A stretch of DNA of 64,000 nt. Origin: Rheinheimera sp. (GTDB lineage: Bacteria; Pseudomonadota; Gammaproteobacteria; Enterobacterales; Alteromonadaceae). The translations under genes and the position numbers were made by a program. The DNA lies in contig SSFI01000056.1 in the NCBI GenBank assembly GCA_008015325.1, forward strand, positions 2,802-66,801, given 5' to 3'. Each line of letters opens with the position of its first letter. Within the stretch, counting starts at the first letter, position 1. The notes beneath the pieces were generated by a model. It did no database searches and was not told the origin of the DNA. It saw only the letters and a program-made list of their open reading frames with translations. Positions 12,701 through 28,627 of this stretch are shown here, piece by piece.

Positions 12701-13053
12701 TTACTGATCAGGTCCAATGCCACCCAGGACGCGGCGATGCTGGGTAACATCGATAAAAAGGTGAGGCCGGGCTGATAACTGACTTCAGTACAAAGCGCAA
12801 ACGCCAGCATGCCGATAAAATGCATCGACCACACACCGCCGCCGAGCGCAATACTGCCACTGGCCAACATCAGCATCCGGTAACTGTGGCGTTGCATTTT
12901 TACTGCCTGCGCCGTGACATGCATCGCTATCGCCGAGGCCAGCACGGCAATCGCAAAAGACAACAACACCAAACCCGGCGTATAGCTGCCATTTAGCAGC
13001 AGCGGATCTGCCGGATATTCAAACCACTGTAAAAGCCATTGCAACAACAGCAC
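9715..13053 (-). CDS. Hybrid histidine kinase MHYT-PAS-PAS-HisKA-HATPase-REC-HPt
   Basis: MHFIGM/MHYAGM/MHYTGM repeats, two PAS domains, [10 protein letters not shown]-box, GGTGLG G-box, LMDIQMP REC, HAVKG HPt. Exact start uncertain. Confidence 0.92.
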
Positions 13054-13121
13054 CTCCGCCTGAATTGAGTTGTGGTCAGCGCCACGGCCTGATTATGTCA
13101 CAGCGGCTGTGCATCCACGGA

Positions 13122-15992
13122 TTAATTACCGGCCTGCACGACCTGGTCGCGGCCCTGAGCTTTGCCCTGATACAGTGCTAAATCGGCCGCTTTCACCGCC
13201 TGTTCCAGTGCGTCTGATTGCAAGGCCACGGCGCTGATGCCAAAAGTGGCGCTGAGCGGCGCCGGCAAGCCCCGCAGTTGCAATTGCCGGATGCCAAGCC
13301 GCAGTTCCTCCACCAGGCTGCTTGCTTGTTGCACATCGGTTTGTGGCATTAACAACAAAAATTCTTCGCCACCCCAACGCGCAATTAAGTCCTGGCCACG
13401 CAGTCGTTGTTTCAGATAAACCGCCACCGCTTTGAGCACGGCATCGCCGGTGTCATGACCGTGTTCATCGTTGATTTTTTTGAAATGATCGATATCCATC
13501 AGCACCAGAGTCAGGGCTGCCGGTGAGCGGCTGCGTTGCGCCTGTAATAAGACTGCGGCCGAATACAAAGCGCGCCGGTTTAACAAACCGGTCAGACTGT
13601 CGGTGTTGGATAATAATTGCAGTTGCTGATTGGCCAGTTCCAGTTCGGCGGTGCGCTGCGCGACCAGCAGATCCAGCGTGGCGGCGCGTTGTTGTAAGCG
13701 CCGGGTGCGTAAATGATACAACAGCCCCAGTACCAGCACCGTGCCGATGCAAAGGAGGGCGATACCAAGCGGGCGCTGCCAGAACGGCACCGGCACCTGT
13801 AGTAGCAAAGGCCGGGTCTGGACAAACTGGCCGCCGGCCTGCGCCATCACTTCCAGCCGGTGCTGGCCCGGACTGAGCTGACTTAAGGTCAACACTGCGT
13901 GCTCGCCGAGCGCAGTCCAGCTTTGCTCCGCATGCCAGCGGAAAAAATATTGCACGCGCAAATGGGGCTGAAAGGCCAGCAACTTAAACTGCAGCTGCAG
14001 CTCTTCAACTTTTTCCGGTAACAGAATGCTGCCTTTGCTTTCTGCCACATGAAATAACTGCCGGTTCAACCGCATACTGGTCAGGTGTAACTGCATTGAG
14101 GACGGCACCGCCGTCATATCCACCGGACTGAGCTGCCACAAGCCACTGCTGGTCGCGAGCTGCACCAAATCGCCATCAAGTGGGCTGATCCCCCGCAGCT
14201 GCGCACTGCTGAGATCAAGCCCTGGCCTTGCCGCAAGCAGATGTAAATTGCTGCCATCCGGGCTGAAACTCAGCACACCATTGCGGGTCAGTACCCAGAC
14301 AATATCCCCGCTGCGGGTCATGCCAATCACTCGCGGGTCCGGCAAGCCTTCCGCCTGACCGAGCAGTGAAAAGGTCTGCCGGTCTGGCTGCAGGCGAATA
14401 AGGCCTCGATCGGTACAGAGCCATAACAAGTCTTCGACCGGCAACATACATTGGAAATAGCCGGTGGCGAGTTTGTTGTCAGGTTGCCAGCGTAAGCTGA
14501 TTTTGTCGGCCTCGCCCTGATACAATTTGCCCTGCCGGCTTAATAACCACAGCCGTTGCTGCGCATCGGTCTGAATATCGACAATGCCTTCCTGCGCCTG
14601 CACGTCGGTTTGCAGTTGCACAGGCTGCCAGTCGGCGACCGGCAGCCTCGCTGCTTCAGCACCAATCCGGTACACGCCTTGTTCCCACAAGCCTAACCAT
14701 AAAGCGCCGTCTGCGGCGATAGCCATCCGTTCGATATTAAAACGCTTGGTGTTGAGCTCAAGTGGCAGCGGCACAAACTGATTGTCGCTGCTGAGCTGAA
14801 ACAAGCCCTGATCGGTGGCGGCCAGCGTGTAGGCGCCGAACTGCACCACATCGCGCACATAAGCCACCGGGCTCGCGGCGTCAAAACTCAGTTCACGCCA
14901 TTGGCCCTGCTGCAGCTGCAACAAGGATTTTTCCAGGGCCTGCCAGCGCGTATTGGTGATGGAAGGCGGACCTAGCCGGTGCTGTTGTTTTGGATTCAAA
15001 TAAGTGCTGATGGCAGGTTCAATCGGCCGGATCGCCGGGGCTGGCAGCATTTGCAGGCCGTTATTGCGGCTGGTCAGCCAGATTTGGCCGCGCCGGTCCC
15101 GAAAGATTTTGCGGATATCAACGGCGCTTTGCAGCAGTTCGGTGTGCAGTTTGCCAGCGATGAGGCTTAACCGGAACAGGCCATCGATGGAGCCAATTAA
15201 CCAGCTGCTGGCGGATTCAGCCAGGATCGCGTTGGGATTACCGACCCCGACCTGTTGGAGCTGATTGGGCTGTGCTAAATCCAGCAGATATAAGTGAGAG
15301 CGCAGGCCGACGAATAAATGCTGGTCCTGCGCGGCGACAGTGCGGATCTCCTGGTCACGAAATTCAGCCTGTTGCAGCCATTCGCCTTGCGCTGTTGGCG
15401 TTGGCGGCAAGCGATACAGGCCTTTGGAAGTAGCAACCCACAAGGTGCCGTCGTCCTGTTCGGTCAGTTGCCAGATGCGCTGGCCGGCGAGCGGCTGCCA
15501 CAGTTCGGCCTGCAGATTGTCCGGGTTTAACTTAAACAGCCCTTCGGTGGTGCCAATCCATAACACCTGTTGGCGGCTTAAATATAAGGTCTGGACCCGG
15601 GCATTATCTGGCAGCGGTGTACTGACCTGCTGCCAGTGCTGGCGCTGACTGTCGAGCCGCCACAGGCCATTGCCCCAGGTGCCGACCCACAGCTGATTGC
15701 GTTGGTCGCTGACGACCTGACTATAACTGACGGCGCGGCGCGGGCCCGGTGGCAGAAAACGCAGATATTCCTGGCCGTCATAGCGCAACAGACCTTCAAA
15801 CTCCGCGGCCAGCCAAAGAAAATCTTGCTGGTCCTGCGTCACGCCGTACACCACGCCCGGTACGTTTTGTGGCAGTTCCACTGTGGTTGCCGGCGGCGTC
15901 ATGGCTGCAGCATTTCCGCAGTGCATCCAGCCACCACACAACAAGGTGAGCAGGAGCATCAAACAAGTCAGGCGCTGGCAGCAATGCAACAA
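13122..15992 (-). CDS. Ligand-binding beta-propeller sensor (Y_Y_Y-type) diguanylate cyclase
   Basis: Signal-like N-terminus, repeated LW(V/I)GT blades, one TM helix, DSLTGLLNR, RGQD I-site, GGEEF. Start may be ATG 15959. Confidence 0.88.
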   Translation of the reverse strand: MLHCCQRLTCLMLLLTLLCGGWMHCGNAAAMTPPATTVELPQNVPGVVYGVTQDQQDFLWLAAEFEGLLRYDGQEYLRFLPPGPRRAVSYSQVVSDQRNQLWVGTWGNGLWRLDSQRQHWQQVSTPLPDNARVQTLYLSRQQVLWIGTTEGLFKLNPDNLQAELWQPLAGQRIWQLTEQDDGTLWVATSKGLYRLPPTPTAQGEWLQQAEFRDQEIRTVAAQDQHLFVGLRSHLYLLDLAQPNQLQQVGVGNPNAILAESASSWLIGSIDGLFRLSLIAGKLHTELLQSAVDIRKIFRDRRGQIWLTSRNNGLQMLPAPAIRPIEPAISTYLNPKQQHRLGPPSITNTRWQALEKSLLQLQQGQWRELSFDAASPVAYVRDVVQFGAYTLAATDQGLFQLSSDNQFVPLPLELNTKRFNIERMAIAADGALWLGLWEQGVYRIGAEAARLPVADWQPVQLQTDVQAQEGIVDIQTDAQQRLWLLSRQGKLYQGEADKISLRWQPDNKLATGYFQCMLPVEDLLWLCTDRGLIRLQPDRQTFSLLGQAEGLPDPRVIGMTRSGDIVWVLTRNGVLSFSPDGSNLHLLAARPGLDLSSAQLRGISPLDGDLVQLATSSGLWQLSPVDMTAVPSSMQLHLTSMRLNRQLFHVAESKGSILLPEKVEELQLQFKLLAFQPHLRVQYFFRWHAEQSWTALGEHAVLTLSQLSPGQHRLEVMAQAGGQFVQTRPLLLQVPVPFWQRPLGIALLCIGTVLVLGLLYHLRTRRLQQRAATLDLLVAQRTAELELANQQLQLLSNTDSLTGLLNRRALYSAAVLLQAQRSRSPAALTLVLMDIDHFKKINDEHGHDTGDAVLKAVAVYLKQRLRGQDLIARWGGEEFLLLMPQTDVQQASSLVEELRLGIRQLQLRGLPAPLSATFGISAVALQSDALEQAVKAADLALYQGKAQGRDQVVQAGN

Positions 15993-16130
15993 AATTCACC
16001 ATGATGAGGACAAAAACCTAATGTATCTGAAGCAGAATAGTTTTTCCACCCGGCCGACACTTGCAGTGTGGCGCAGTGGCCATGACAATAGCGGCTATCA
16101 GAGTGCACAAAGCCCAACGGGAGCAATAAC

Positions 16131-16583
16131 ATGGTATGGGACGACAGCGCCGATTTTGTCTGGTGTGAACAACAATTCGCCGCGATCGAAGCTTATGTAC
16201 AGGCACAGCAAATCCCGCATGGCCTGATCTGCGACTGGCCGGAATGGTATACCGCACCGTATGTCGGATTGTGGGTGGTGGAAGATCCGGCCGACCCGGG
16301 ATATGCCGGCCACTGGATTTTAGCCGGCGACAGCACGGGCGCGCAGCCACAGCCGGTGCCTTTTGACCATTTACCGGCAGCTGAGTTACCTGAGCCCCGT
16401 GATGCCATGGCCGCTTTTGCCAAACGCTGGGCCGGCTTGGCCGCAAAGGCGCAAAAAGGTGAAAGCTGGTCCGGCAGCCCAAAGCTTTCCGGTGACTTAG
16501 CGGCACAGGCCAAACAGCTGAGCCGGCAAGCGCAATTACTGAGCCTGTGGGCGCAGGATGATGAGTTGTGGGAAGAGGATTGA
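16131..16583 (+). CDS. Conserved hypothetical protein, DUF4826-like
   Basis: 150 aa; YVGLW...W(I)LAGD...DH...RDAMAAFAKRW pattern resembles DUF4826 (from recall). Confidence 0.55.
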   Translation: MVWDDSADFVWCEQQFAAIEAYVQAQQIPHGLICDWPEWYTAPYVGLWVVEDPADPGYAGHWILAGDSTGAQPQPVPFDHLPAAELPEPRDAMAAFAKRWAGLAAKAQKGESWSGSPKLSGDLAAQAKQLSRQAQLLSLWAQDDELWEED

Positions 16584-16664
16584 TTTTCGCTGCCGTTCGT
16601 TGTTATTTCGCCGCAGCTCAATGAAAAATGGCAGCCGAAGCTGCCATTGTTTTGCGTGGGACGT

Positions 16665-19307
16665 TTAGAACTTCACGGTATAACGCAGCGTCCAGTTGCG
16701 GCCTAACCAGTCGTGGATCGAGCTGGCATAACCGTTGGTTGGAGAGGATGCATAAGGTGGTTCTTTGTCGGTCAGGTTACGTACCGCGAACTGGATATCC
16801 TGTTTGTCGGTGATGTTGTAACCGATACTGGCGTTTAAGGTCAGCCAGGATTTGACGGTTTCATTGTCAAACTTGAAGTCACCATCGCCGAGCGAGCTGA
16901 TGTAGTGCGCGCTGAAGCTGACATTCCAGTCCTGCAGTTCCCAGTCAATCGCCGTGTCGCCGACAAATTCCGGCCGGGCGATTTCGCTGGCGCCACTGAG
17001 TTTACCCAGTAAATCTTCGGCCGGGTCGTCTGCCGTCAGCTGACGCTCGTAGCTCAACGTGCGGGTGCCGGCTAAGGTCAGGTTAAAACGGCCGGCGCTG
17101 CTGTCGAAGCCGTATTTGACTTTGGCGTCGATGCCGTCAGTTTCCTGAGCGCCGACGTTAAAGAAACCGGTGCGCAGGAATACCAAATCACCGCCGCTGT
17201 CTTTGACACAACCAAAAGCGCCGTTCAGGGCGGCTTCGTTAGTCACAGTCGGAGCCGTGCCGGCGAGACAGGCTTTTAACGTAGTGTTGGCGTCCACATC
17301 AACGATATCGGTGTGCTCATAACGCCAGTAATCCACAGTGATGTTGAAGTCGTCGGTCAGGTTCCAGGAGACACCGGCGTTCCAGGCTTCGGAGCTTTCT
17401 GCATCCAGCCCGCGGTTGCCCTGCGTTTCCTGGTCAAATTCCAGTTCTCCGGCCTGAGCACCGAAGCTGCCGCACAGGCCGTTATATGGTTTGCCGTTGC
17501 CACAATCGATATAGTTAGAACCTAATGAAGTACCAGCGCCGAGTTCAGACAAAGACGGCGCGCGGAAACCGGTGCTCCAGCTAGCGCGCAGAATTAAATC
17601 GTCAGTCGCTTTGTAGCGCAGTGACACTTTCGGGTTGGCATCACCACCAAAATCGCTGTAATGGTCATACCGCAGGGCAGTGATCGCATCCAGTTGCTCG
17701 GTCAATGGCAGGTTAAACTCCGCATAACCGGCATATTGCGTGCGGTCGGCGGCTGCATCGCTGGCGCCTAAGGTACTGACCAAACCTTGTTGGGCCACTA
17801 AAGCTGGCCGGTCGAAAATATCTTCGCTGCGCCATTCCCCGCCAAATACCGCGCTGATTGGGCCGGCTGGCAATTCACCGAGCTGACCGCTGAAGTTAAA
17901 GTCCCAGGATTTGACGTCCGATTCACCGACCCGTGGCGCCAGTTCACGCAAGCCGGCCAGCACTTCAGGCTTGGTGTCGCGGCCCCCATTATCACGACCA
18001 AGGTTAAACGGATTAAACTGGCCGCTGGCGGTCGCAGCTGCAACGCGGTCCAGGTTGAAATAACCGCTGGTATGTAACACTTCATTGTCGGATTTGCCGA
18101 TAGTCGCTGCTGTTTCCCAGCGCCAGCTGTCGCTGCTGCCAAACAAAGTGGTTTCACCGCGAAGGCCCGCCAGCAGGCGGTAGCTGTTGCTGTCATATTC
18201 CTGCATCCGCACTTCCGGATAACGGGAGCGGATGCGGATAGTGCCAACAGAGCCGTTTTTGGCGTCAATATCGCGGACCCACTGCGGCACTGAGCTCAGC
18301 GAACCCGGCACGCGCAGGTCAAAAGAGCCGGCCGAATCATAGGAATGGCCACTGTTTTGCTGAACCATAGCTTCAACAAAGAGTTCATTGTCACCACCGA
18401 GGCGATAGATATGGTTCAGCGTGGCGCCGAGGTTTTTACTGTCCGGCTGAATCGCCCGTTCCATCACATAGTCATATTGGCAGCGGGTGCCGCCGTTGCT
18501 GGTTGCGGTGCCACACCAAGGTTCAGCATAGTCTTTGCCGTCAATAGTGACGCGGGTTGACGATTTAAAAGTCACGTTGATCGGGCGATCTGCATTCATT
18601 AGCGCATCGCGGTCGAAGTAATCCAGCACCACAGTAGTGTTGGAGTTTTCCGTGGCAAAACCACCGGTATAGGTGAAGTTTTTGCGGGTGAAATCGCTAT
18701 CGGCACTGTCATCGCCATACATGGCGCTGATTTCCTGACCTTCATAATCTTTTTTCAGGATGAAGTTGATGACACCTGCGATAGCGTCAGAACCATAGAC
18801 TGAAGCGGCGCCGTCGGTCAGCACGTCGATGCGCTCAATTGCCGCCATCGGAATAGCATTGACGTTAACAAAAGAATCAAAGCCGTTGGAGAAAGAGTCA
18901 ACCGCGACGCGACGGCCGTTCACCAGCACCAGTGTGGAGCTCGAGCCCAGACCACGTAAACTGACGCCGGCCGCGCCCGGTGGGGTGCCGTCTGAACCAC
19001 CGACGTTGCCGTTTTCAGTGAAAGTGCCGGCGCTGGCGGCTTGCGGCAGGTCACGCAGGAAGCTGGCGACATTGTCGTAGCCTTTGTTAATCAGCTCTTC
19101 AGCAGTGAAGACCTGCAGTGGATTGGCGCCTTCCATGTCAACGCCTTTGAGGCGTGAACCTGTGACTTCAATTTTTTCGATTTTTTTCTCGGCATCCGCC
19201 TCAGCTGTTGCCGCCGGGGCTTGTTGGGCCTGAGTGCTGAAAGCCAGCAATAAAGCGCTGTACAGGGCTGATTTACGGATCATCGCTGCTGATGTCGTTG
19301 CGTTCAT
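16665..19307 (-). CDS. TonB-dependent outer-membrane receptor
   Basis: Signal peptide, EKIEVTGSR TonB-box region, plug motifs (LRGLG, LVLVNGRR, IERIDVL), C-terminal GRNWTLRYTVKF with terminal Phe; SD AGAGGA. Confidence 0.95.
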   Translation of the reverse strand: MNATTSAAMIRKSALYSALLLAFSTQAQQAPAATAEADAEKKIEKIEVTGSRLKGVDMEGANPLQVFTAEELINKGYDNVASFLRDLPQAASAGTFTENGNVGGSDGTPPGAAGVSLRGLGSSSTLVLVNGRRVAVDSFSNGFDSFVNVNAIPMAAIERIDVLTDGAASVYGSDAIAGVINFILKKDYEGQEISAMYGDDSADSDFTRKNFTYTGGFATENSNTTVVLDYFDRDALMNADRPINVTFKSSTRVTIDGKDYAEPWCGTATSNGGTRCQYDYVMERAIQPDSKNLGATLNHIYRLGGDNELFVEAMVQQNSGHSYDSAGSFDLRVPGSLSSVPQWVRDIDAKNGSVGTIRIRSRYPEVRMQEYDSNSYRLLAGLRGETTLFGSSDSWRWETAATIGKSDNEVLHTSGYFNLDRVAAATASGQFNPFNLGRDNGGRDTKPEVLAGLRELAPRVGESDVKSWDFNFSGQLGELPAGPISAVFGGEWRSEDIFDRPALVAQQGLVSTLGASDAAADRTQYAGYAEFNLPLTEQLDAITALRYDHYSDFGGDANPKVSLRYKATDDLILRASWSTGFRAPSLSELGAGTSLGSNYIDCGNGKPYNGLCGSFGAQAGELEFDQETQGNRGLDAESSEAWNAGVSWNLTDDFNITVDYWRYEHTDIVDVDANTTLKACLAGTAPTVTNEAALNGAFGCVKDSGGDLVFLRTGFFNVGAQETDGIDAKVKYGFDSSAGRFNLTLAGTRTLSYERQLTADDPAEDLLGKLSGASEIARPEFVGDTAIDWELQDWNVSFSAHYISSLGDGDFKFDNETVKSWLTLNASIGYNITDKQDIQFAVRNLTDKEPPYASSPTNGYASSIHDWLGRNWTLRYTVKF

Positions 19308-19502
19308 GGGTATTCCTCTGGATCAAATTGTTGCTTAAAAGCAATCTGCATTGGATTGTTCAGAAAAACGACACAGAGGGGGCCGCACAGGCAGATCCGG
19401 AGTGACACGCTCGGACAGATCATCAATAACCAGGTGCTGCCATTGCAGGGAGTGCGCAACAACAGGCGGATTATTGCCGTAAAGCCGGGATCTGTGGGGC
19501 GA

Positions 19503-19523
19503 CCCTCTGCGTCAGGCAGAGGG
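19503..19523 (-). promoter_or_regulatory. GC-rich hairpin right after leader peptide 1 (pause/attenuator candidate, no U-tract)
   Basis: Minus-strand CCCTCTGC-ctgac-GCAGAGGG, 8-bp stem with 5-nt loop, starting 4 nt after the UAG. Confidence 0.7.
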
Positions 19524-19527
19524 GTGG

Positions 19528-19602
19528 CTAATTATTAAACCACTCGGACAGGTAGTAAGGAGAGTAACGGTAGTTGCTCAGGTTGACTGCGCATTTCAAC
19601 AT
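19528..19602 (-). CDS. 24-aa leader peptide 1, MLKCAVNLSNYRYSPYYLSEWFNN, upstream of the TonB-dependent receptor
   Basis: Manual translation; strong SD (AAGGAGGAGAGTC-ATG); TAG stop; 17/24 identical to the ORF at 21791-21865. Confidence 0.85.
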   Translation of the reverse strand: MLKCAVNLSNYRYSPYYLSEWFNN

Positions 19603-19728
19603 GACTCTCCTCCTTTGGGTTTGGCAGCGGCCCAGTATTGGCATCGCGCTGCTTTGGGGTTATTCGGGGCTATTCAGCATTTGGGCCAGCCCAACCGGAC
19701 CAGCACAGCCTGAAAATCGGCTTGCTTT

Positions 19729-19759
19729 TCAAACTGTCTGATCCGGCAAAAACTGTCAA
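19729..19759 (-). promoter_or_regulatory. Putative sigma70 promoter/operator for leader 1 and the receptor
   Basis: Perfect TTGACA (19759-19754), 17-nt spacer, weak -10 CAGTTT inside the imperfect palindrome TCAG-acagt-TTGA. Confidence 0.45.
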
Positions 19760-19792
19760 GCGGTTTTTTTTCACCTCATGCACATCGAATGC

Positions 19793-21625
19793 TTAGCGAT
19801 TGATTTGCAGATAAAAATTCTGATAAGAACAATAATCTGTCACCGGATCCACTTGCGAATAAGTACCAAGGGCGGCCCGGCTGTCGGGCTGTTGCTGCAG
19901 TACCAGCTGTGCCTGCGCTGCCAGGCCTTCGGCCCGGGCTTGCCTGCTGCGGCACAGTTGCAGCGCCAGCTGCCGGTAATTGTCACCTGTCAGGATGTCG
20001 TTGTTTTTCAGTACGCTGGCGGAAGTATCCGGCACTTTCACTGGCTTTTTCCAGGGGGCAAACTGCAGGGTCAGCTCGCCGTTATGCAGCAATGCCTGGT
20101 CATCCCGGCTCAGGTAGTGGGTGCGCACACCGCTGATGGTCCAGGCCGCGCCGCTGTCTTTGGCCTTAGCGCCGGCGAGATCGGCGATATAAACACCTGA
20201 TGCACCAAGCACAGCAAAGCGGGCGTTGTTTGGGGCTGTCGGATTGAAGCCAACCAGCAGGGCAGTGGCTTCGTCAACGCCAAAACCGTAGCGGGTTTGG
20301 GTATCGCTTAATAGCCTTACCAGCCTTGCTTCGCGGCCACGTTCGGAAAAATGCGTGTCGGTGACACCAAAGGGGAATAAACCCAGGCCACCCTGGGCCC
20401 GGTAAGTCAGCTGGTCTTCGGCCAGTTCAGCAGGGCAGCTGTGATTTTTTTCACAACCAGCCAGTGGCGCCTCTGCCGGCACAGCGCCGCTTTGCAGTGC
20501 CTGAGCGCTGCTGCCATTGCTGATCATCGGCACTGTTTTTTCGGTAAAGCGGCCGCCGGCTTGCACCGCAGTACCCGCGCTGGTGCCGGCGACAATCAGC
20601 TTGCCTGCCTGCAGCCGGGCAGTGATGGCCTTCAGTTCCGGGCTGGCGCTGCCGTCTGGCAGGCGCAGCGCTTGCAACGTCAGGCTTTGGTCGCCGCCGT
20701 TAAAAAAGATCGCATCGGCTTGTTCAATTTGCGCGACTGCAGCGGCCGGGCCTTGCTGGCAAAAAGCCTGCAGATCGGCGAATAAATCCGGATAGACCGC
20801 AGCGCGGTTGTAGCTGCCGTGGATGTCAGCGAGGTACTGCGGTAATTGCTCACAACTGGCTTTGCCGGCGGTTTTTTGCTGTTGTGCGGCCTGATACGCG
20901 GCGTTCAGCGGTAACCAGCGCGCCTCGGCACCAGTCTCGGCAAAAGCGCTTTGATAAAAATCTACCGCGGCCAGCGGGTCACGGCTGGATGCTGTGACCA
21001 CCAAAACTACAGGCTTCCCCGGTTTTTGCCGCACTTTGCCCGCCAGTTCAGTGATTTTCTCGTAGATTTCGACACTGAACTTGTCTTTAGTCTGCGCCAG
21101 ACTGGCCTGTTCACGCTGGCGTTGTTGTTGCGATAGCTGCGGCTGCTGCAGCAGGTCAAACATCAGGTTCAGCTCCAGTTCGGACAGCTGCTGATACAGC
21201 GTTTCGCCTCTGATGGTCTGACCGGCCAGTTCAACTTTGGCCAGCCGTAAGCGTTGGCGCAGTTCCTCTTCAGTCATGGCCTTGGTGCCAAAATCCAGTA
21301 TCAGCTGACTGAGGATGGCTTGTGTTTGCTGGCGCTGTTCAGCCCGGCTTTCTGGCCACACTGCGGATTGGCTGATGTCACGGATGCGGGGCAGGCTCAG
21401 CGCGTACAGTTCGGTGCTTTTGGTATTGGCGGCAAACTGCGGATTGTCGCTGCAGGAAGATCGGCTTTGCGAGCTGCAGGTATGCAGGCCACCACCGACT
21501 AACACCATTGAATATTCAGGAAATTTCGTAGAAGCAGTTGCAGCAGACGCGGCGCTGCAAAGCGCAAGCGCCGGCAGCAATTTCGGCAACACTGGGCTGA
21601 AAGATCGTTTCATTTTAAGGTCCAT
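19793..21625 (-). CDS. Secreted cyanophycinase (peptidase S51 family)
   Basis: Signal peptide; LVGGG, IFFNGGDQ, GTSAG (catalytic Ser), DTHFSERGREARL (His), GVDEAT (Glu). Start 21625 or 21613. Confidence 0.87.
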   Translation of the reverse strand: MDLKMKRSFSPVLPKLLPALALCSAASAATASTKFPEYSMVLVGGGLHTCSSQSRSSCSDNPQFAANTKSTELYALSLPRIRDISQSAVWPESRAEQRQQTQAILSQLILDFGTKAMTEEELRQRLRLAKVELAGQTIRGETLYQQLSELELNLMFDLLQQPQLSQQQRQREQASLAQTKDKFSVEIYEKITELAGKVRQKPGKPVVLVVTASSRDPLAAVDFYQSAFAETGAEARWLPLNAAYQAAQQQKTAGKASCEQLPQYLADIHGSYNRAAVYPDLFADLQAFCQQGPAAAVAQIEQADAIFFNGGDQSLTLQALRLPDGSASPELKAITARLQAGKLIVAGTSAGTAVQAGGRFTEKTVPMISNGSSAQALQSGAVPAEAPLAGCEKNHSCPAELAEDQLTYRAQGGLGLFPFGVTDTHFSERGREARLVRLLSDTQTRYGFGVDEATALLVGFNPTAPNNARFAVLGASGVYIADLAGAKAKDSGAAWTISGVRTHYLSRDDQALLHNGELTLQFAPWKKPVKVPDTSASVLKNNDILTGDNYRQLALQLCRSRQARAEGLAAQAQLVLQQQPDSRAALGTYSQVDPVTDYCSYQNFYLQINR

Positions 21626-21696
21626 TAATGAGGGCTTTATTTACTAATACGCCGGGCGCTGCGTTAAAATCCAGCAGTTTTTTTGGCCAGTGCGGC

Positions 21697-21728
21697 TTGA
21701 CTTCCGCCGGCTAAATCAGTATTTCTGA
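21697..21728 (+). promoter_or_regulatory. Putative sigma70 promoter/operator for leader 2 and yfcC-iadA
   Basis: TTGACT (21697-21702), 17 nt, TATTTC, overlapped by the palindrome TCAG-tattt-CTGA (21716-21728); same layout as 19729-19759. Confidence 0.45.
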
Positions 21729-21790
21729 AAAAGACAGCGGGCTTTGCGGCCTTGCTGACGCCCATTTTCCCCAGTTTTTTTGGTAGCGAT

Positions 21791-21865
21791 ATGCTGAAAA
21801 ATGCCTTTGCTTTAAGCTCATATCACTACTCGTCCTACTACCTGTCGGAGTGGTTTAACGAGTAG
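21791..21865 (+). CDS. 24-aa leader peptide 2, MLKNAFALSSYHYSSYYLSEWFNE, upstream of yfcC-iadA
   Basis: Manual translation from ATG 21791 to TAG 21865; same length as leader 1 with invariant YYLSEWFN. SD is weak (GGTAG). Confidence 0.82.
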   Translation: MLKNAFALSSYHYSSYYLSEWFNE

Positions 21866-21869
21866 ATCT

Positions 21870-21894
21870 CAGCCAGACATCCGCTGTCTGGCTG
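21870..21894 (+). promoter_or_regulatory. Hairpin right after leader peptide 2 (pause/attenuator candidate, no U-tract)
   Basis: CAGCCAGACA-tccgc-TGTCTGGCTG, perfect 10-bp stem with 5-nt loop, starting 4 nt after the UAG. Confidence 0.7.
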
Positions 21895-22017
21895 GCGTCT
21901 GTTACGCCACCTCCAATGATCACACAATGCGATTGTTTATTGCGTCAATGCACGCTGTGCTGGTCTGAATCCTTGTTGATCTGGCTTTGGTGCCAGTCGT
22001 AATCCACAGGTTAAATT

Positions 22018-23553
22018 ATGTCTGTTACCCCGAAATCGCCGCAGTCCGGCCCGGCGTCAGCCACCCCGACGCCAGGCGTGGCCACATCAGCGACGTCCAT
22101 GCCCGATGCCATGGTGATCCTGTTTTTTATCATGGTGCTGGCGGCTATCGCTTCGCACCTGATCCCGGCAGGTTCCTTTCAACTGCTGGAACCGGCGCCG
22201 GTGGCCGAAGGTGCCGCCAAAGTCACTGGTAAACTCGACCCGAATAGTTTTCGCTTTGCCGAAAACAGCGCAGGCGGCGTACCGCTGTTTGCTGAAGGCG
22301 GCGGTATCGGGTTTTTTAATTATGCCTTTGAGGGCCTGGTGTCGGGCAATAAGTGGGGCTCGGCGATTGGCGTGGTGATGTTTATCCTGCTGACCGGGGG
22401 TGCTTTTGGCATCCTGATGAAAACCGGCGCAATTCACAACGGGATTCTGGCACTGATCCGGCGCACACAGAATCTGCAGATTTTATTTATCCCAATATTA
22501 TTTCTACTGTTTTCGCTCGGTGGTGCTGTGTTTGGTATGGGCGAAGAGGCAATTGCTTTTTGCATCATTCTGCTGCCACTGATGCTGGCGCTGGGCTATG
22601 ACGCGATCACCACGGTGTTGGTGACTTATGTCGCAACTCAAATCGGTTTTGCAACGTCCTGGATGAACCCGTTTAACATTGCCATCGCGCAGGGTATTGC
22701 CGAGATCCCGTTGTTTTCCGGCCAGGAATTGCGCATGGTGATGTGGGCGGTGTTTACGCTGTTTGGTTTGATTTTCACGATGCGCTACGCCGCCAAAATC
22801 AAAGCCAATCCGACATTGTCCCTCAGTTATCAGTCAGATCTGCGCCAGCGCAGTCAGCACAGTGCACAGGTGATCAGTCAGTATCAGCTGCTTGATTCAG
22901 TGATCCTGCTGGTGTTTTTTGCCGGTCTTGGCTGGATCATCTGGGGCGTGACCAGTCGCGAATATTACATTCCGGAAATTGCCAGCCAGTTTTTCACTAT
23001 TGGTATCGTGATTGGTGCCATCGCAGTGATTGGCCGGCGCCTGAAGGTGAACGATGTTGCCGATGGTTTTAAACAAGGTGCAGCAGAATTGCTGCCGGCG
23101 GCGATGATTGTCGGTATGGCCAAAGGCATGTTGTTGCTGCTTGGTGGCGGTGACCCGCAAACGCCGTCGGTACTCAATACCTTATTGTATTACTCGGCGC
23201 AATCGCTGCAGGATTTGCCGGCCTATTTATCTGCCTGGCTGATGTTGGTGGTGCAGTCGGTGATTAACTTTTTTGTTTCATCCGGCTCTGGCCAGGCCGC
23301 ATTGACCATGCCGCTGATTGCACCTTTGTCGGATTTGATTGGCCTGTCGCGCCAGACCGCCGTATTGGCTTTTCAACTCGGCGATGGCCTGACCAACTGT
23401 ATTATCCCAACTTCTGCTGCGTTGATTGGTTGCCTTGGTGCCGTGCGGCTGGATTGGACTGTCTGGCTACGTTTTGTCTGGCGCCTGCAGCTCTATCTGT
23501 TTGGTTTAGCCAGTGCTTTTATGCTGCTCGCCGTCGCCATTCAATATCAGTAA
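22018..23553 (+). CDS. yfcC: YfcC-family inner-membrane transporter (putative basic amino acid/dipeptide antiporter)
   Basis: Multi-TM protein with IPAGSF, GMGEEAIAF, SWMNPF, SGSGQAALTMP, FQLGDGLTN motifs typical of YfcC/DcuC-like carriers. Confidence 0.85.
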   Translation: MSVTPKSPQSGPASATPTPGVATSATSMPDAMVILFFIMVLAAIASHLIPAGSFQLLEPAPVAEGAAKVTGKLDPNSFRFAENSAGGVPLFAEGGGIGFFNYAFEGLVSGNKWGSAIGVVMFILLTGGAFGILMKTGAIHNGILALIRRTQNLQILFIPILFLLFSLGGAVFGMGEEAIAFCIILLPLMLALGYDAITTVLVTYVATQIGFATSWMNPFNIAIAQGIAEIPLFSGQELRMVMWAVFTLFGLIFTMRYAAKIKANPTLSLSYQSDLRQRSQHSAQVISQYQLLDSVILLVFFAGLGWIIWGVTSREYYIPEIASQFFTIGIVIGAIAVIGRRLKVNDVADGFKQGAAELLPAAMIVGMAKGMLLLLGGGDPQTPSVLNTLLYYSAQSLQDLPAYLSAWLMLVVQSVINFFVSSGSGQAALTMPLIAPLSDLIGLSRQTAVLAFQLGDGLTNCIIPTSAALIGCLGAVRLDWTVWLRFVWRLQLYLFGLASAFMLLAVAIQYQ

Positions 23554-23565
23554 AAGGAATTCTTT

Positions 23566-24747
23566 GTGAACCCGATGCTTCTGTTAAAAAATGCTGAACT
23601 GATGGCGCCACAACCGCTGGGCCGGCAGGACGTGCTGGTGGCAGGCAACCGGATTGTCGCCATAGGCCACGATTTTAATTTGTCCGGCAGCAATGTTCCG
23701 GTCACTGTGCTGGACTGCACTGACTATTACCTGACCCCCGGTTTTGTTGATTCACTGGTACATTTTATCGGTGGTGGCGGTGAAGGTGGTTTTGCCACCC
23801 GCACGCCGGAGATGCAGTTAACTGATGCCACGCTTGCTGGTGTAACCACCGCCATCGGTGTGTTAGGCACTGATGCCACCACCCGCACTTTAACCAACTT
23901 GCTGGCCAAGGCCCATGCGCTGGAGGCTGAGGGCATCAGCACTTATTGCCACACCGGCTCTTATGAAATCCCTTGCCGGACGCTGACGGGGAGCATCACC
24001 GACGATTTGATTCTGATCGATAAGTTTATCGGTGTCGGCGAAATCGCCATCAGCGATCATCGTTCGTCGCAGCCCACCACCGACGAAATTCGCAAAGTCG
24101 CGGCTGCAGCGCGGGTCGGTGGCATGTTAGCCGGCAAAAGTGGTGTGGTCAGCGTGCATGTCGGCGCCGGCGAACGCATGCTGCAGCCGCTGTATCAGGC
24201 TGTCAGTGGCACTGAGCTGAAACTGAAACAGTTCTATCCGACCCATATGAACCGCAACCGGCGCATCTTTGAGGCCGGCATTGAATTTGCCAAAAAAGGT
24301 GGCGTGATTGATTTCACGACCAGCACCACGGCTTATGATTTGCAGCACGGCGAAGTCGCAGCCGCAGCGGCACTGGCAGAAGCGTTGTATCTCGGTATAA
24401 CGCCACTGCAACTGACATTAAGTTCGGACGGTAATGCCAGTTTGCCGATTTTTAACGAGGAAGGCGAATTACAGGGTTTGCAGGTCGGGCAGGTGCGTAG
24501 TCTGTTTGATAGTATGCGTGAGGCAGTGCAGCGGCACCATGTACCGCTGGCCGCTGCGCTTACCGCAGTGACTGCCGCCCCGGCCGCAGTGCTGGGTTTG
24601 TCGCAAAAGGGCCGTGTAGCGGTTGGCCTGGATGCAGACTTGCTGTTACTGCGCCGGGACGATTTACAGCTGGATTCAGTCGTTGCCAAAGGCCGGTTAC
24701 TGGTGCAGGGCGGGCAGGCACTGGTCAAAGGCACTTTTGAACGTTGA
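23566..24747 (+). CDS. iadA: Beta-aspartyl peptidase (isoaspartyl dipeptidase)
   Basis: GGGGEGGFATRTPE, GTDATTR, GEIAISDHRSS, PTHMNRN, SSDGNASLP; GTG start with AAGGA, 12 nt after yfcC. Confidence 0.93.
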   Translation: MNPMLLLKNAELMAPQPLGRQDVLVAGNRIVAIGHDFNLSGSNVPVTVLDCTDYYLTPGFVDSLVHFIGGGGEGGFATRTPEMQLTDATLAGVTTAIGVLGTDATTRTLTNLLAKAHALEAEGISTYCHTGSYEIPCRTLTGSITDDLILIDKFIGVGEIAISDHRSSQPTTDEIRKVAAAARVGGMLAGKSGVVSVHVGAGERMLQPLYQAVSGTELKLKQFYPTHMNRNRRIFEAGIEFAKKGGVIDFTTSTTAYDLQHGEVAAAAALAEALYLGITPLQLTLSSDGNASLPIFNEEGELQGLQVGQVRSLFDSMREAVQRHHVPLAAALTAVTAAPAAVLGLSQKGRVAVGLDADLLLLRRDDLQLDSVVAKGRLLVQGGQALVKGTFER

Positions 24748-24778
24748 ATCTCAGCATTTCACATAATGGCTTGTCCAG

Positions 24779-24802
24779 AGCAGCCGGCACAGGCCGGCTG
24801 CT
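24779..24802 (+). terminator. Hairpin after iadA (possible terminator)
   Basis: AGCAGCCGGC-acag-GCCGGCTGCT; poor U-tract. Confidence 0.45.
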
Positions 24803-24869
24803 TGCACAAAACCGCATCAGTCTTTACTCTGCTGTCACCCTGTGAAAAGCAGACAACTGCCTAAAGCTG

Positions 24870-25529
24870 ATGCCGATGCAATATATCTGTATAGCCGATG
24901 ATCACCCGCTGTATCGTGATGCGCTCAAAGACGTGCTGCATCAGCATTTCACTGCGCTGAGCGTGCTGGAAGCCGGCTCGCTGGCGCAAGTGCTGGAACT
25001 CGCTGCAGCTTATCCGGCGCTGGAATTTATTCTGCTCGATTTAAATATGCCGGGAATGGCCGGATTAAATGGCTTAGTGCAGCTGCGTCAGCTGTTTCCG
25101 CAGGTAGCAGTCGCGATGTTGTCGGCCGAGGATGACAAACAAACGGTGTTGCAGGCGATGGCGTTTGGTGCGGCCGGTTTTATTTCCAAAGCCGCTGGCC
25201 GGCAGCAATTGGTCAGTGCGCTGAAGCAATTGCTCAATGGCGACATTTATCTGCCGGCGGATACCTTTCGGCAAAGTGCCATCACCAGCAGTGACACCAT
25301 AGTACACAAAGCCGAACAGGCGTTATTACGCAGCCTGACTAAAAAACAAATCAAAGTGTTACAGCGCATGGTCAGCGGCGAGTCGAACAAACAAATTGCC
25401 GACGCGCTCTGTATCGCTGAAACCACAGTCAAAGCCCATGTTTCTGCCGTGCTGGCTAAACTCGGCGTGTCAAGCCGGGTGCAGGCTATTTTGCTGGCAA
25501 GAGATCTCGATTTCAGTTTGTATCTTTAA
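24870..25529 (+). CDS. NarL/LuxR-family response regulator, ErbR(AgmR)-like
   Basis: IADDHPL, LLDLNMPG, GESNKQIA...IAETTVKAHVSA...RVQAIL; closely resembles Pseudomonas ErbR (from recall). Confidence 0.88.
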   Translation: MPMQYICIADDHPLYRDALKDVLHQHFTALSVLEAGSLAQVLELAAAYPALEFILLDLNMPGMAGLNGLVQLRQLFPQVAVAMLSAEDDKQTVLQAMAFGAAGFISKAAGRQQLVSALKQLLNGDIYLPADTFRQSAITSSDTIVHKAEQALLRSLTKKQIKVLQRMVSGESNKQIADALCIAETTVKAHVSAVLAKLGVSSRVQAILLARDLDFSLYL

Positions 25530-25535
25530 CCCGTC

Positions 25536-27350
25536 TCAAACACCCAACAATAAATGGCGCAGCATACTTTTCAGCTGCAGCGGCCGCACCGGTTTATATA
25601 GCAGCTGATAACCCTGTTGTTTCAGAGCAATAGCGAGCTGCTGCTGGCTGTTGGCAGTGATGATCAATACCGGCACATCGGCAAATCCGGTCTGACTTCT
25701 TAATTGTTGCACCACAGCGGTGCCAAGCAGACCATCTGCCAGCTGGTAATCAACAATCAGCAAATCAGGTTTTTCTTTGGCGTTAAAAGCGCCGGCGTCG
25801 GCACCGCTTTGCACCTGATAACCCCAGCTGGTTAATAACGTATTCATCGCCTGACAAATAGTCGCGTCATTATCGATGACCCAAATGCTGGCGTTTGCTT
25901 TATCCATCACCGGCAGTATCAGCTGTGGCGGTTCAGACGCTGGCTCAGCGATGGGCAACTTCAGAGCAAACACAGAACCGCGGTTCAGTTCCGACTGCAC
26001 CCGCAGCGGATGCGCTAACAAGTGGCATAATCGTTCGACAATAGCGAGGCCAAGGCCCAGGCCGGCTTCAGTGGCGCGGCTTTGCGGCAGACGCTGAAAC
26101 TCCTGAAAAATCAGCTCAAGATGTTCATCAGCGATGCCGACGCCGCTGTCGAGCACCTGAATTTCCACCTTGTCGCCGCGTCGCCGGCAGCCCAGTAACA
26201 CTGCGCCGCCGGGTGGCGTGTAGCGCAGCGCATTGGTCAGCAGATTGCGTAAAATCCGTGTCAGCCAGCTTGGGTCTGTTTGTACTGTGAATTGGCTGGC
26301 GACAAAACGAAAACGCAGACCTTTGCTGGCCGCGAGAGCTGCAAACTCACTGGCCAGCGCCGCTAACAAAGGCCCAAGCGCCACGTTACTGCAGTCCGGT
26401 TGCAGCTGACCGGCGTCTAGTTTGGATAAATCCACCAGGGTGCGCAGTAAATCACCAACATCGTCCAGCGCCCGACCGGCCGACAGCGCCAGCTGTTGCT
26501 GGTTGTGGCCGAGCGGCTGTTCCAATAAAGCGCCATTAAACAGCCGGGCGGCGTTCAGCGGCTGTAACACATCGTGGCTGACTGCAGCCAGTAACTGACT
26601 TTTTGACTGATTGGCCTGTTCGGCCGCTGTGGTGGCGGCGCGCAATTGCTGGTTCAGCGCCGTCAGCGCGCTAGTGCGTTCAGCCACACGTTGTTCCAGA
26701 TGTAAATTAGCCTGACGTAAGGCTTCTGAAGTGCGTTTACGCTCAGTGATGTCGCGGTTTAATACAAAAAAACCGCTGATTTGTTGTTGCTCGTCGCGAT
26801 GCGGCACATAGGTTTTCAGCAAATGCCGCCACTCACCGTCGGCATTTTGCTCGTCAATTTCAAACACGACTTGCTCGCCGCTTAATACCTGCAACACATA
26901 AGGCGCCAGTCTGGCGGCGCCTTCCGGGCCATGCGCAGCATCCAAAGTCTGATTTAATAAACTGCCGGCCGGGACGCCATAAAAGTCGTCGTAACCGCGG
27001 TTGGTAAACAGATAAATGCCGGCTGCCGAGAGATAGGCAATCATCGCCGGCACATGGTCGGTGATAGTGCGGATCCAGCGCTCGCTTTGCGCCAGCGTTT
27101 CTGAATAACGCACCGAGCGGCGCAGCTCGTCATAAGCGCGCGACAGCTCAGCGGTGCGTTCCCGCACTTGTTCGGCCAGCACCGCAGCATGTTGAAACGC
27201 GGCATAAGGCCCGGTGTGCACGGCGTTTTGGCCGGCCTCGACCCGTTCAATCAACGCCTGATTGATTTTGCGCAGCTTTTGGTTTTCCGCTTGCAGTGCC
27301 AACAGCTGTTGCTCAAGATCGGCTTTTTGCGTTGTGGTTGTTTCAGTCAT
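25536..27350 (-). CDS. PAS hybrid sensor kinase, NahK/ErcS-like
   Basis: Coiled coil LRKINQALIERVE...YAAFQH, PAS, SHDVLQPLNA H-box, GLGLGL, C-terminal REC; 8-nt overlap with the FIST gene. Confidence 0.87.
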   Translation of the reverse strand: MTETTTTQKADLEQQLLALQAENQKLRKINQALIERVEAGQNAVHTGPYAAFQHAAVLAEQVRERTAELSRAYDELRRSVRYSETLAQSERWIRTITDHVPAMIAYLSAAGIYLFTNRGYDDFYGVPAGSLLNQTLDAAHGPEGAARLAPYVLQVLSGEQVVFEIDEQNADGEWRHLLKTYVPHRDEQQQISGFFVLNRDITERKRTSEALRQANLHLEQRVAERTSALTALNQQLRAATTAAEQANQSKSQLLAAVSHDVLQPLNAARLFNGALLEQPLGHNQQQLALSAGRALDDVGDLLRTLVDLSKLDAGQLQPDCSNVALGPLLAALASEFAALAASKGLRFRFVASQFTVQTDPSWLTRILRNLLTNALRYTPPGGAVLLGCRRRGDKVEIQVLDSGVGIADEHLELIFQEFQRLPQSRATEAGLGLGLAIVERLCHLLAHPLRVQSELNRGSVFALKLPIAEPASEPPQLILPVMDKANASIWVIDNDATICQAMNTLLTSWGYQVQSGADAGAFNAKEKPDLLIVDYQLADGLLGTAVVQQLRSQTGFADVPVLIITANSQQQLAIALKQQGYQLLYKPVRPLQLKSMLRHLLLGV

Positions 27351-28506: not shown

Positions 28507-28627
28507 AATTTCGCCTAAAGCTGGCCTGGACGGCAGGCATGTACCGGATTGTAGGGCGAATTTCTTGCCACAGGCAAGCCGGACCACAGTCCGGCGCCGT
28601 GACAGCAGGCTGGTGCCAAAAACGGAC

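What the first reader, a model, noticed from the sequence alone, without database searches (positions are those of the whole stretch)
16665..24747. PUL-like cyanophycin scavenging locus: TonB receptor, secreted cyanophycinase, YfcC carrier and IadA
Established: cyanophycinase cuts cyanophycin to beta-Asp-Arg dipeptides, and IadA splits these into Asp and Arg. Seen here: an S51 cyanophycinase with a signal peptide, co-oriented with a TonB-dependent receptor, and divergent from yfcC-iadA. No cyanophycin synthetase is present in the window. Inference: this is an import-and-degrade pathway for foreign (cyanobacterial) cyanophycin, organised like a polysaccharide utilisation locus. I know of no characterised TonB receptor for cyanophycin or its fragments.
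Basis: partly seen in the sequence, partly recalled or inferred. Interest (0 to 1): 0.82.

Follow-up and report, generated by a model that had tools for sequence, protein, structure and literature searches.

The report
Cyanophycin scavenging locus with TonB receptor
This Rheinheimera genome, which cannot make the nitrogen-storage polymer cyanophycin, carries a widely conserved gene set that most likely harvests other microbes' cyanophycin: an exported cyanophycinase-like enzyme, a dedicated outer-membrane TonB receptor, an inner-membrane carrier and a dipeptidase, with receptor and carrier behind the same 24-residue leader peptide.

Summary

- **The receptor is not a chance neighbour.** It belongs to a two-branched TonB-receptor clade. 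Six members sampled from 63% down to 34% identity (Shewanella, Ferrimonas, Idiomarina, Silanimonas and two MAGs) all lie in a receptor-YfcC-IadA operon. Five have a divergent long S51 gene; the sixth sits at a contig start.
- **Control.** Two receptors just outside the clade have other neighbours.
- **Shared leader.** A 24-codon leader ORF (...YYLSEWFN-stop) precedes both the receptor and yfcC here. In 84 of 84 resolvable instances elsewhere it precedes a receptor, yfcC or a short secreted S51 gene.
- **The S51 protein.** It folds like cyanophycinase CphB and keeps the catalytic triad, but scores below the curated cut-off.
- **Second locus.** The genome also has an Oar-like receptor-S51-YfcC-IadA locus.

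The idea is not new. Cyanophycin-utilisation loci (2017) and a receptor-cyanophycinase adjacency (2012) are published, and this scan already noted the same cassette and leader on other DNA. No such receptor has been characterised. I class it as a new variant of a known kind.

The parts
16627..16648 (.). Bidirectional terminator-like hairpin just past the receptor stop codon; it ends the receptor transcription unit
   Evidence: 9-bp stem with a T-run on the minus strand
16665..19307 (-). TonB-dependent receptor, type 1 (880 aa): proposed outer-membrane importer of cyanophycin-derived beta-Asp-Arg peptides
   Evidence: Plug plus barrel, signal peptide, C-terminal Phe; orthologues, synteny, clade
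19308..19527 (-). Receptor 5' UTR. Hairpin at 19523-19503, right after the leader stop. In the minimum-energy fold, CCUCUG (within 19522-19517) pairs with the receptor Shine-Dalgarno CAGAGG
   Evidence: z = -2.9; a hairpin 4-8 nt after the stop is seen in most of the 81 sequences, with differing stem sequences
19528..19602 (-). Leader ORF 1, MLKCAVNLSNYRYSPYYLSEWFNN, stop TAG
19793..21625 (-). Long-form S51 peptidase (610 aa), cyanophycinase-like, with a signal peptide; no leader of its own
21791..21865 (+). Leader ORF 2, MLKNAFALSSYHYSSYYLSEWFNE, stop TAG
21871..21893 (+). GC-rich hairpin starting 5 nt after the leader-2 stop
22018..23553 (+). YfcC/DcuC-family inner-membrane carrier: proposed beta-Asp-Arg importer
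   Evidence: NF008611, 700 bits
23566..24747 (+). IadA isoaspartyl (beta-aspartyl) dipeptidase, no signal peptide, cytoplasmic
   Evidence: (TIGR01975, 498 bits)

Best explanation
This is a scavenging module for exogenous cyanophycin, or its beta-Asp-Arg fragments, in a Rheinheimera that cannot make the polymer. Proposed route (inferred, not shown): the exported long S51 enzyme cuts cyanophycin to beta-Asp-Arg units. The TonB-dependent receptor takes these di- or oligopeptides across the outer membrane. YfcC carries beta-Asp-Arg across the inner membrane. Cytoplasmic IadA splits it into Asp and Arg. Receptor and yfcC-iadA are each preceded by a paralogous 24-codon leader ORF (...YYLSEWFN-stop) followed by a hairpin, so they form one regulon. 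The S51 gene has no leader and may act as a basal sentinel enzyme that makes the inducer. Shown here: gene identities, conserved linkage, shared leader, absence of cphA. Inferred: substrate, direction of transport, enzyme location, what the leader senses.
For: Gene identities. S51: best fold match is CphB 7uqw (TM-score normalised to the target 0.77-0.78, against about 0.6 for PepE) on a model with pLDDT 90.7. GTSAG Ser, DTHF His and GVDE Glu align to Ser132, His174 and Glu201 of CphB. GGDQ, D, and R-x-R-x-x-R align to Q101, D172, R178, R180, R183, and these are invariant or nearly so in 30 homologues. Linkage: the same layout occurs in close relatives and is rearranged but kept in other genera. 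Six of six receptor homologues (63-34% identity) lie in a receptor-DcuC-amidohydrolase operon, five with a divergent 560-591 aa S51. Type 1 and type 2 receptors form one clade (85/84 support; each branch 100/99 or better), apart from the genome's other six receptors. Two receptors outside the clade lack the context. Leader: it occurs only twice in the genome, both times here. There are 109 stretches in 185,579 species genomes, where I estimate about 0.07 expected by chance. Of 87 instances read, 65 precede a receptor, 14 yfcC, 5 a short secreted S51 and 3 are at locus edges. The variation pattern fits a translated ORF: entropy 0.57, 0.40 and 1.14 at codon positions 1, 2 and 3; always ATG and always 24 codons. 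Scavenger status: no cphA in the genome, and cphA in 1 of 43 genus genomes. A second, independent locus in the same genome joins another receptor type (Oar-like) to S51-YfcC-IadA and is conserved in five genomes. Literature: scavenging clusters of cyanophycinase, IadA and a transporter without cphA1 are recognised (PMC10206079), and a receptor next to a cyanophycinase was read as a cyanophycin transporter in Citromicrobium (PMC3400609).
Against: No biochemical or genetic data exist for any member. S51 scores 91 bits, below the 126.6 cut-off of TIGR02069, and has large insertions plus an extra C-terminal beta domain. A solved 'pseudo-CphB' (7uqv) carries the same triad and Arg-rich motif, so motifs do not prove cyanophycinase activity. 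One pocket residue differs (Q173 to T). IadA enzymes are promiscuous for beta-Asp dipeptides (PMC10206079). A 289-Da dipeptide could pass porins, so the receptor's true cargo (dipeptide, oligomer or polymer) is open. In Arsukibacterium ikkense the orthologous long S51 (peg.721 = P0073) was not flagged in the exoproteome, whereas a 49-kDa S51 was. It may therefore be periplasmic, cell-bound or simply uninduced.
Confidence: 0.68

Rival explanations
1. The module handles another beta-aspartyl or Asp-containing peptide substrate, not cyanophycin. Examples are isoaspartyl peptides from aged proteins or another poly-amino acid. The long S51 would then be a cyanophycinase-like enzyme of different specificity.
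For: S51 is below the TIGR02069 cut-off. A pseudo-CphB with the same motifs exists in the PDB. Q173 is replaced by T. IadA is a general beta-Asp dipeptidase (PMC10206079). Large uncharacterised insertions are present.
Against: The fold is closer to CphB than to PepE. The Arg cluster that lines the CphB pocket is invariant across homologues. YfcC is named a putative basic amino acid antiporter, which fits an Arg-containing cargo. PGAP names the homologues cyanophycinase.
Confidence: 0.2
2. The TonB-type protein acts in export, releasing the S51 enzyme across the outer membrane, rather than in nutrient import. Oar of Myxococcus was reported to do this for PopC (recalled from my own knowledge, not checked here).
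For: The second locus of this genome has an Oar-like receptor directly upstream of S51b. S51 needs some route out if it acts extracellularly.
Against: The window's receptor is a classical Plug-plus-barrel protein without the Oar N-terminal domain. In most genomes it is co-transcribed with the inner-membrane carrier and the dipeptidase, not with S51. In many Rheinheimera genomes the type 1 receptor stands alone, far from any S51.
Confidence: 0.06
3. The receptor is an unrelated iron or siderophore receptor that merely lies next to the cyanophycin genes.
For: Source databases label homologues 'iron complex outermembrane receptor protein'. The nearest solved structures are CirA and FepA, matching the plug region only.
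Against: Synteny persists across orders down to 34% identity, there is a clade-specific context, and the leader is shared with yfcC. All NCBIfam siderophore models score far below their cut-offs.
Confidence: 0.02
4. The locus turns over the cell's own cyanophycin store.
For: S51 and IadA are the two canonical degradation steps.
Against: There is no cphA in a 99.99%-complete genome, while the same search finds cphA in other genera. S51 carries a signal peptide and 8 conserved Cys.
Confidence: 0.01

Closest known systems
Cyanophycin utilization locus of strain L21-Spi-D4 (Ben Hania et al. 2017, as described in PMC10206079), and the cyanophycinase plus IadA/IaaA scavenging clusters without cphA1 catalogued there
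   Same: Cyanophycinase-like gene, isoaspartyl dipeptidase and a transporter clustered in an organism lacking cphA1; read as scavenging of environmental cyanophycin.
   Different: This is a gammaproteobacterial cassette with a classical (non-SusC, no SusD) TonB receptor clade, a long-form S51 with insertions, and leader-peptide control. I could not read the 2017 paper, so its outer-membrane parts are not compared at first hand.
Receptor next to cyanophycinase in Citromicrobium sp. JLT1363 (Tang et al. 2012, PMC3400609)
   Same: Genome-context prediction that a TonB-dependent transporter takes up cyanophycin or its products.
   Different: That was a single adjacency in an alphaproteobacterium, with no conservation analysis, no YfcC-IadA operon and no leader. 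Homology of the two receptors was not tested.
Extracellular cyanophycinase CphE of Pseudomonas anguilliseptica BI, and intracellular CphB of Synechocystis (PDB 3EN0, 7UQW)
   Same: S51 fold, Ser-His-Glu triad, Arg-rich pocket; a signal peptide, as in CphE.
   Different: 610 aa against about 270 (CphB). It has a roughly 150-residue helical insertion after the first strand, a second insertion, and a C-terminal beta domain. It is below the curated HMM cut-off.
AotJQMP-AotO (CphZ) route for beta-Asp-Arg use in Pseudomonas aeruginosa (PMC9974463)
   Same: Scavenging of cyanophycin dipeptide by a non-producer: an importer plus a cytoplasmic dipeptidase.
   Different: That route uses an ABC importer and an M14 CphZ, against a YfcC carrier and IadA here. 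It has no cyanophycinase and no dedicated outer-membrane receptor.
TonB-dependent uptake of peptides or proteins: RagAB of Porphyromonas gingivalis, FusA/FusC of Pectobacterium (recalled from my own knowledge, not checked here)
   Same: An outer-membrane TonB-type gate paired with a peptidase to feed on peptide material.
   Different: Different receptor subfamilies, and no sequence relationship shown. Their cargo is ribosomal peptides or ferredoxin, not an isopeptide polymer.
Ligand-sensing leader peptides TnaC and SpeFL (recalled from my own knowledge)
   Same: A short, conserved leader ORF (24 codons, as in TnaC) with an invariant C-terminal motif and a regulatory RNA element right after the stop codon.
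   Different: No sequence similarity was established, the ligand is unknown and stalling is not shown. No Rfam family matches the region.

Membership tests
Cyanophycinase (MEROPS S51; NCBIfam TIGR02069) | S51 fold closest to CphB | tested here: met
   Foldseek top hits are 7uqw and 3en0, TM-score (target-normalised) 0.72-0.78, E 1.6e-12; PepE hits are about 0.6. Model pLDDT 90.7.
Cyanophycinase (MEROPS S51; NCBIfam TIGR02069) | Ser-His-Glu catalytic triad (Ser132, His174, Glu201 of CphB) | tested here: met
   GTS349AG, DTH425F and GVDE452 align to the CphB positions. E452 is invariant, and S349 and H425 are at least 90% conserved in 30 homologues.
Cyanophycinase (MEROPS S51; NCBIfam TIGR02069) | Substrate-pocket residues Q101, D172, Q173, R178, R180, R183 (residue list recalled from the CphB structure paper; positions checked on the 7uqw alignment) | tested here: inconclusive
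   Five of six are kept; Q173 is T. The solved 'pseudo-CphB' 7uqv keeps the same motif, so the feature does not discriminate.
Cyanophycinase (MEROPS S51; NCBIfam TIGR02069) | Score at or above the curated equivalog cut-off (126.6 bits) | tested here: not met
   91 bits, matching model positions 75-218 of 250 only. Insertions break the match.
Cyanophycinase (MEROPS S51; NCBIfam TIGR02069) | Hydrolysis of cyanophycin to beta-Asp-Arg | not testable with these tools
   Needs an enzyme assay.
Isoaspartyl dipeptidase IadA (TIGR01975) | Full-length match above the curated cut-off | tested here: met
   498 bits against 331, residues 5-392 on model positions 2-389.
YfcC carrier (NF008611; Pfam DcuC) | Full-length match above the curated cut-off | tested here: met
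   700 bits against 500; DcuC 9e-123.
TonB-dependent receptor | Signal peptide, Plug domain, 22-strand-type barrel domain, C-terminal aromatic residue | tested here: met
   Plug residues 60-179, barrel 359-845. N-terminal signal-like segment, and the sequence ends ...RYTVKF.
Polysaccharide utilisation locus in the strict sense (SusC/SusD pair) | SusC/RagA-subfamily receptor with an adjacent SusD-like lipoprotein | tested here: not met
   The SusC signature TIGR04057 scores 22.7 bits against a cut-off of 46.2. No further ORF lies between 16665 and 24747 other than the two leaders. It is PUL-like by logic only.
Cyanophycin utilisation / scavenging cluster (as defined in PMC10206079) | Cyanophycinase gene clustered with iadA or iaaA, plus a transporter, in a genome without cphA1 | tested here: met
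   The caveat on the S51 cut-off above applies.

The most novel reading that the evidence does not exclude
The two-branched receptor clade could be the first dedicated outer-membrane import system for a non-ribosomal poly-amino acid. The receptor would bring cyanophycin oligomers or chains into the periplasm. There the long-form S51, not seen in a relative's exoproteome, would trim them to beta-Asp-Arg for YfcC and IadA. The whole regulon would be switched on by a new ribosome-arrest leader peptide (...YLSEW[FW]-x-x-stop) that senses beta-Asp-Arg or Arg and frees the receptor's ribosome-binding site.
Probability: 0.25. Interest if true: 0.8.

Novelty: new variant of a known kind. Interest (0 to 1): 0.6.

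Why it matters
Cyanophycin is a major nitrogen store of cyanobacteria, and how heterotrophs around blooms capture it is poorly understood. No outer-membrane transporter for it or its fragments has been characterised. This locus defines a coherent, testable receptor clade tied to cyanophycin-type genes across Rheinheimera, Alishewanella, Arsukibacterium, Alkalimonas, Permianibacter, Shewanella, Ferrimonas, Idiomarina and Silanimonas. It gives YfcC-family carriers a concrete substrate hypothesis. It also links all parts through one leader peptide, so a single reporter or knockout series in a culturable strain could test uptake, enzyme location and regulation together.

Tried and rejected
- **Rfam.** A scan of 16000-25600 at E up to 1 found no known riboswitch or leader family.
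- **Promoter and terminator scan.** It gave nothing above shuffles, apart from the terminator after the receptor.
- **A classical terminator after the leaders.** The conserved hairpins lack T-runs, so simple intrinsic attenuation is not supported.
- **Lipoprotein reading of S51.** The Cys in LALC is not conserved in homologues, so this was rejected.
- **Sequence motifs as proof of cyanophycinase activity.** Weakened by the pseudo-CphB entry 7uqv, which shares them.
- **Nearest solved receptor.** Only plug-level similarity to CirA and FepA, which says nothing about cargo.
- **The LuxR-type regulator, NahK and NosP next to iadA.** They travel with the locus only in the closest relatives, so I do not count them as parts.
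- **Literature.** No paper joins yfcC and cyanophycin. Ben Hania 2017 is not held, and 'pseudo-CphB' was not found in the library.


Full report
**What is in the sequence.** The stated interval holds four genes at exactly the given limits.
- A TonB-dependent receptor lies at 16665-19307 (-). It has Plug and barrel domains, and all curated siderophore, B12 and haem models score far below their cut-offs.
- A 610-aa S51 protein lies at 19793-21625 (-).
- YfcC lies at 22018-23553 (+), scoring 700 bits against a cut-off of 500.
- IadA lies at 23566-24747 (+), scoring 498 bits against a cut-off of 331. It has no signal peptide.

Base composition across the locus matches the rest of the window. Titles of near-identical loci place the genome in Rheinheimera, close to R. 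texasensis.

**The S51 protein.**
- It scores 91 bits on TIGR02069, below the 126.6 cut-off, and matches only the middle of the model.
- Alignment to CphB (7uqw numbering) places GTSAG on Ser132, DTHF on D172/His174, GVDE on Glu201, GGDQ on Q101, and R-x-R-x-x-R on R178/R180/R183. Q173 is replaced by T.
- In 30 homologues of 41-87% identity these residues are invariant or nearly so, and eight cysteines are conserved. That fits an extracytoplasmic protein.
- An AlphaFold model built on that alignment is confident (pLDDT 90.7, pTM 0.89). Only residues 1-31, the presumed signal peptide, are disordered.
- Its best PDB matches are cyanophycinases (TM-score normalised to the target 0.72-0.78), ahead of peptidase E (about 0.6).
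- The protein is more than twice the size of CphB. It has a helical insertion after the first strand, a second insertion, and a C-terminal beta domain.
- A caution: the PDB entry called pseudo-CphB (7uqv) carries the same triad and Arg motif, so these motifs cannot prove activity.
- PGAP names the homologues cyanophycinase.

**No synthetase.** TIGR02068 finds nothing near its cut-off in this 99.99%-complete genome. The same search finds cphA in 13 of 121 genomes of the family and in 1 of 43 genomes of the genus. The negative is therefore meaningful, and carriers of the locus are non-producers.

**Is the receptor part of the system? Close relatives.** The first was synteny. Close relatives share the layout. 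One species has yfcC-iadA-leader-receptor, and other families have receptor-yfcC-iadA with a divergent S51.

**Is the receptor part of the system? The identity ladder.** I walked down the ladder of receptor homologues and read the gene neighbourhood of six.

| Organism | Identity to the window's receptor |
|---|---|
| Shewanella xiamenensis | 63% |
| MAG | 48% |
| MAG | 44% |
| Ferrimonas marina | 36% |
| Silanimonas (Lysobacterales) | 35% |
| Idiomarina | 34% |

All six are followed by a DcuC-family carrier and an amidohydrolase. Five have a divergent 560-591 aa S51-like gene, and the sixth sits at a contig start.

**Is the receptor part of the system? The tree.** A maximum-likelihood tree puts the window's receptor type ('type 1') and a second type ('type 2', about 960-990 aa) in one clade. 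Support is 85/84 for the clade and 100/99 or better for each branch. The clade is separate from the six other TonB receptors of this genome. Two receptors just outside the clade have other neighbours: an M1 peptidase in one case, and efflux and GGDEF genes in the other. The association therefore belongs to the clade, not to TonB receptors in general.

**Shared leader peptide: where it occurs.** Upstream of the receptor and upstream of yfcC lie two paralogous 24-codon ORFs, MLKCAVNLSNYRYSPYYLSEWFNN and MLKNAFALSSYHYSSYYLSEWFNE. The motif occurs nowhere else in the genome. A degenerate DNA pattern for it found 109 stretches in one-genome-per-species GTDB. I estimate about 0.07 expected by chance for uniform bases. 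The hits are in Rheinheimera, Alishewanella, Arsukibacterium, Alkalimonas, Permianibacter and a few MAGs.

**Shared leader peptide: what follows it.** The next gene was read for the 87 instances in the 80 loci returned.

| Next gene downstream | Instances |
|---|---|
| Clade receptor | 65 |
| yfcC | 14 |
| Short secreted S51 (TIGR02069 51.8 and 63.4 bits in the two scanned) | 5 |
| Unreadable, at a locus edge | 3 |

- The usual layout is S51 <> leader-type 2 receptor-yfcC-iadA. A leader-type 1 receptor unit often stands elsewhere in the genome.
- The window's lineage has lost the type 2 receptor. Its best match in this genome is the type 1 receptor, at 39%.
- More distant cassettes carry recognisable variants such as ...WYLSEWWDE and ...FYLSDWWDE.

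**Shared leader peptide: is it translated?** The 73 distinct leader sequences all start with ATG, are all 24 codons long, and vary mainly at third codon positions. Entropy is 0.57, 0.40 and 1.14 at positions 1, 2 and 3. That argues for a translated peptide under selection. A hairpin begins 4-8 nt after the stop in most of the 81 sequences, with different stem sequences. In the window, the minimum-energy fold pairs the sequence right after leader 1 with the receptor's Shine-Dalgarno (z = -2.9). A ribosome held at the leader stop codon would free it. This last step is inference. Separate findings of this scan address the leader itself.

**A second locus.** Contig C119 of the same genome carries, on one strand:
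- a LuxR-type regulator;
- a 1022-aa Oar-like TonB-type protein, with a CarboxypepD_reg domain, a weak plug match and a TonB-receptor C-terminus;
- S51b, 602 aa, with a signal peptide;
- a second YfcC and a second IadA.

The arrangement is conserved in five Rheinheimera genomes. So an unrelated outer-membrane TonB-type gene has also been joined to the same three-gene core.

**How it most likely works.**
- Shown: gene identities, linkage, a common leader and non-producer status.
- Inferred: the exported S51 releases beta-Asp-Arg units from foreign cyanophycin. The receptor imports these, or short oligomers, at low concentration. YfcC, named a putative basic amino acid antiporter, takes the dipeptide into the cytoplasm, and IadA splits it.
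- S51 has no leader, so it may be made at a basal level and generate the inducing signal.
- Open: whether S51 acts outside the cell or in the periplasm. In Arsukibacterium ikkense the orthologous long S51 (peg.721, identical in its N-terminus to P0073) was not marked as found in the exoproteome, while a 49-kDa S51 was. The cultures were not cyanophycin-induced.

**Comparison with what is known.**
- Scavenging clusters of cyanophycinase, isoaspartyl dipeptidase and a transporter in cphA1-less genomes are published, under the name 'cyanophycin utilization locus' (PMC10206079, citing Ben Hania 2017).
- A receptor next to a cyanophycinase was read as a cyanophycin transporter in 2012 (PMC3400609).
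- P. aeruginosa uses AotJQMP and CphZ for beta-Asp-Arg (PMC9974463).
- I found no paper that characterises a TonB receptor for cyanophycin, links YfcC to it, or describes the leader.
- Earlier notes of this scan record the same cassette with a ...YLSEWFDE leader in another genome, and SusC/SusD-type versions in Bacteroidota. My results were obtained independently of those notes and agree with them.

**Verdict.** It is a new variant of a known kind of system: a gammaproteobacterial, leader-controlled cyanophycin-scavenging cassette that depends on a classical TonB receptor.

Noticed in passing
window 19528-19602 (-) and 21791-21865 (+): Two paralogous 24-codon leader ORFs ending in YYLSEWFN[NE]-TAG. 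The family is found in 109 stretches of GTDB species genomes, always next to cyanophycin-cassette genes. The variation pattern fits a translated peptide. The stop is TAG in all 87 instances read, and TAA also occurs in the distant variants of Shewanella and Ferrimonas.
   Followed up: partly
G000 contig C119 = L031:4471-13076 (-): Second cyanophycin-type locus in the same genome: LuxR-type regulator, Oar-like TonB-type protein (1022 aa), S51b (602 aa, secreted), YfcC-b and IadA-b. It has no leader motif and is conserved in five Rheinheimera genomes.
   Followed up: partly
L034:10386-13265 and L035; window 21866-22017: Sister genomes (R. texasensis and a Salar de Ascotan MAG) carry a type 2 receptor (959 aa) between leader 2 and yfcC. 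The window has only about 150 nt there, so its lineage has lost this gene cleanly.
   Followed up: partly
L061, L073, L095, L109, L114 (Permianibacter and related MAGs): Here the same leader precedes short (about 350 aa) secreted S51 cyanophycinase-like genes, so the leader regulon includes the enzyme itself in some lineages.
   Followed up: partly
window 19315-19527 (-): In the minimum-energy fold, CCUCUG just after the leader-1 stop pairs with the receptor's Shine-Dalgarno CAGAGG about 200 nt downstream (z = -2.9). This may be ribosome-binding-site masking that is relieved by a ribosome paused on the leader stop.
   Followed up: partly
window 24870-28656: An ErdR/NarL-like response regulator (24870-25529, +) lies next to a NahK-type hybrid kinase (25536-27350, -) and NosP (27343-28656, -): a nitric-oxide sensing module. 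It travels with the locus only in the closest relatives.
   Followed up: no
window 9715-15992 (-): An MHYT-PAS hybrid histidine kinase with an Hpt domain (1112 aa) and a Reg_prop-GGDEF diguanylate cyclase (956 aa) lie beside the locus. A conserved 162-aa ORF without any family match sits at 16018-16506.
   Followed up: no
L038-L043, L053, L067 and others: In many Rheinheimera and Arsukibacterium genomes a gene of about 510 aa, distantly similar to NahK (24-27% identity), follows the long S51 gene. It could be a locus-specific sensor kinase and is absent from the window.
   Followed up: no
L169:6001-10706 (Algiphilus sp.): The nearest receptor outside the cyanophycin clade is followed by an M1 aminopeptidase, which hints that the wider receptor group deals with peptides.
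   Followed up: no
G001:C20:26175-28760: One type 1 receptor orthologue in the genus has an internal TAA stop, so it may be a pseudogene.
   Followed up: no
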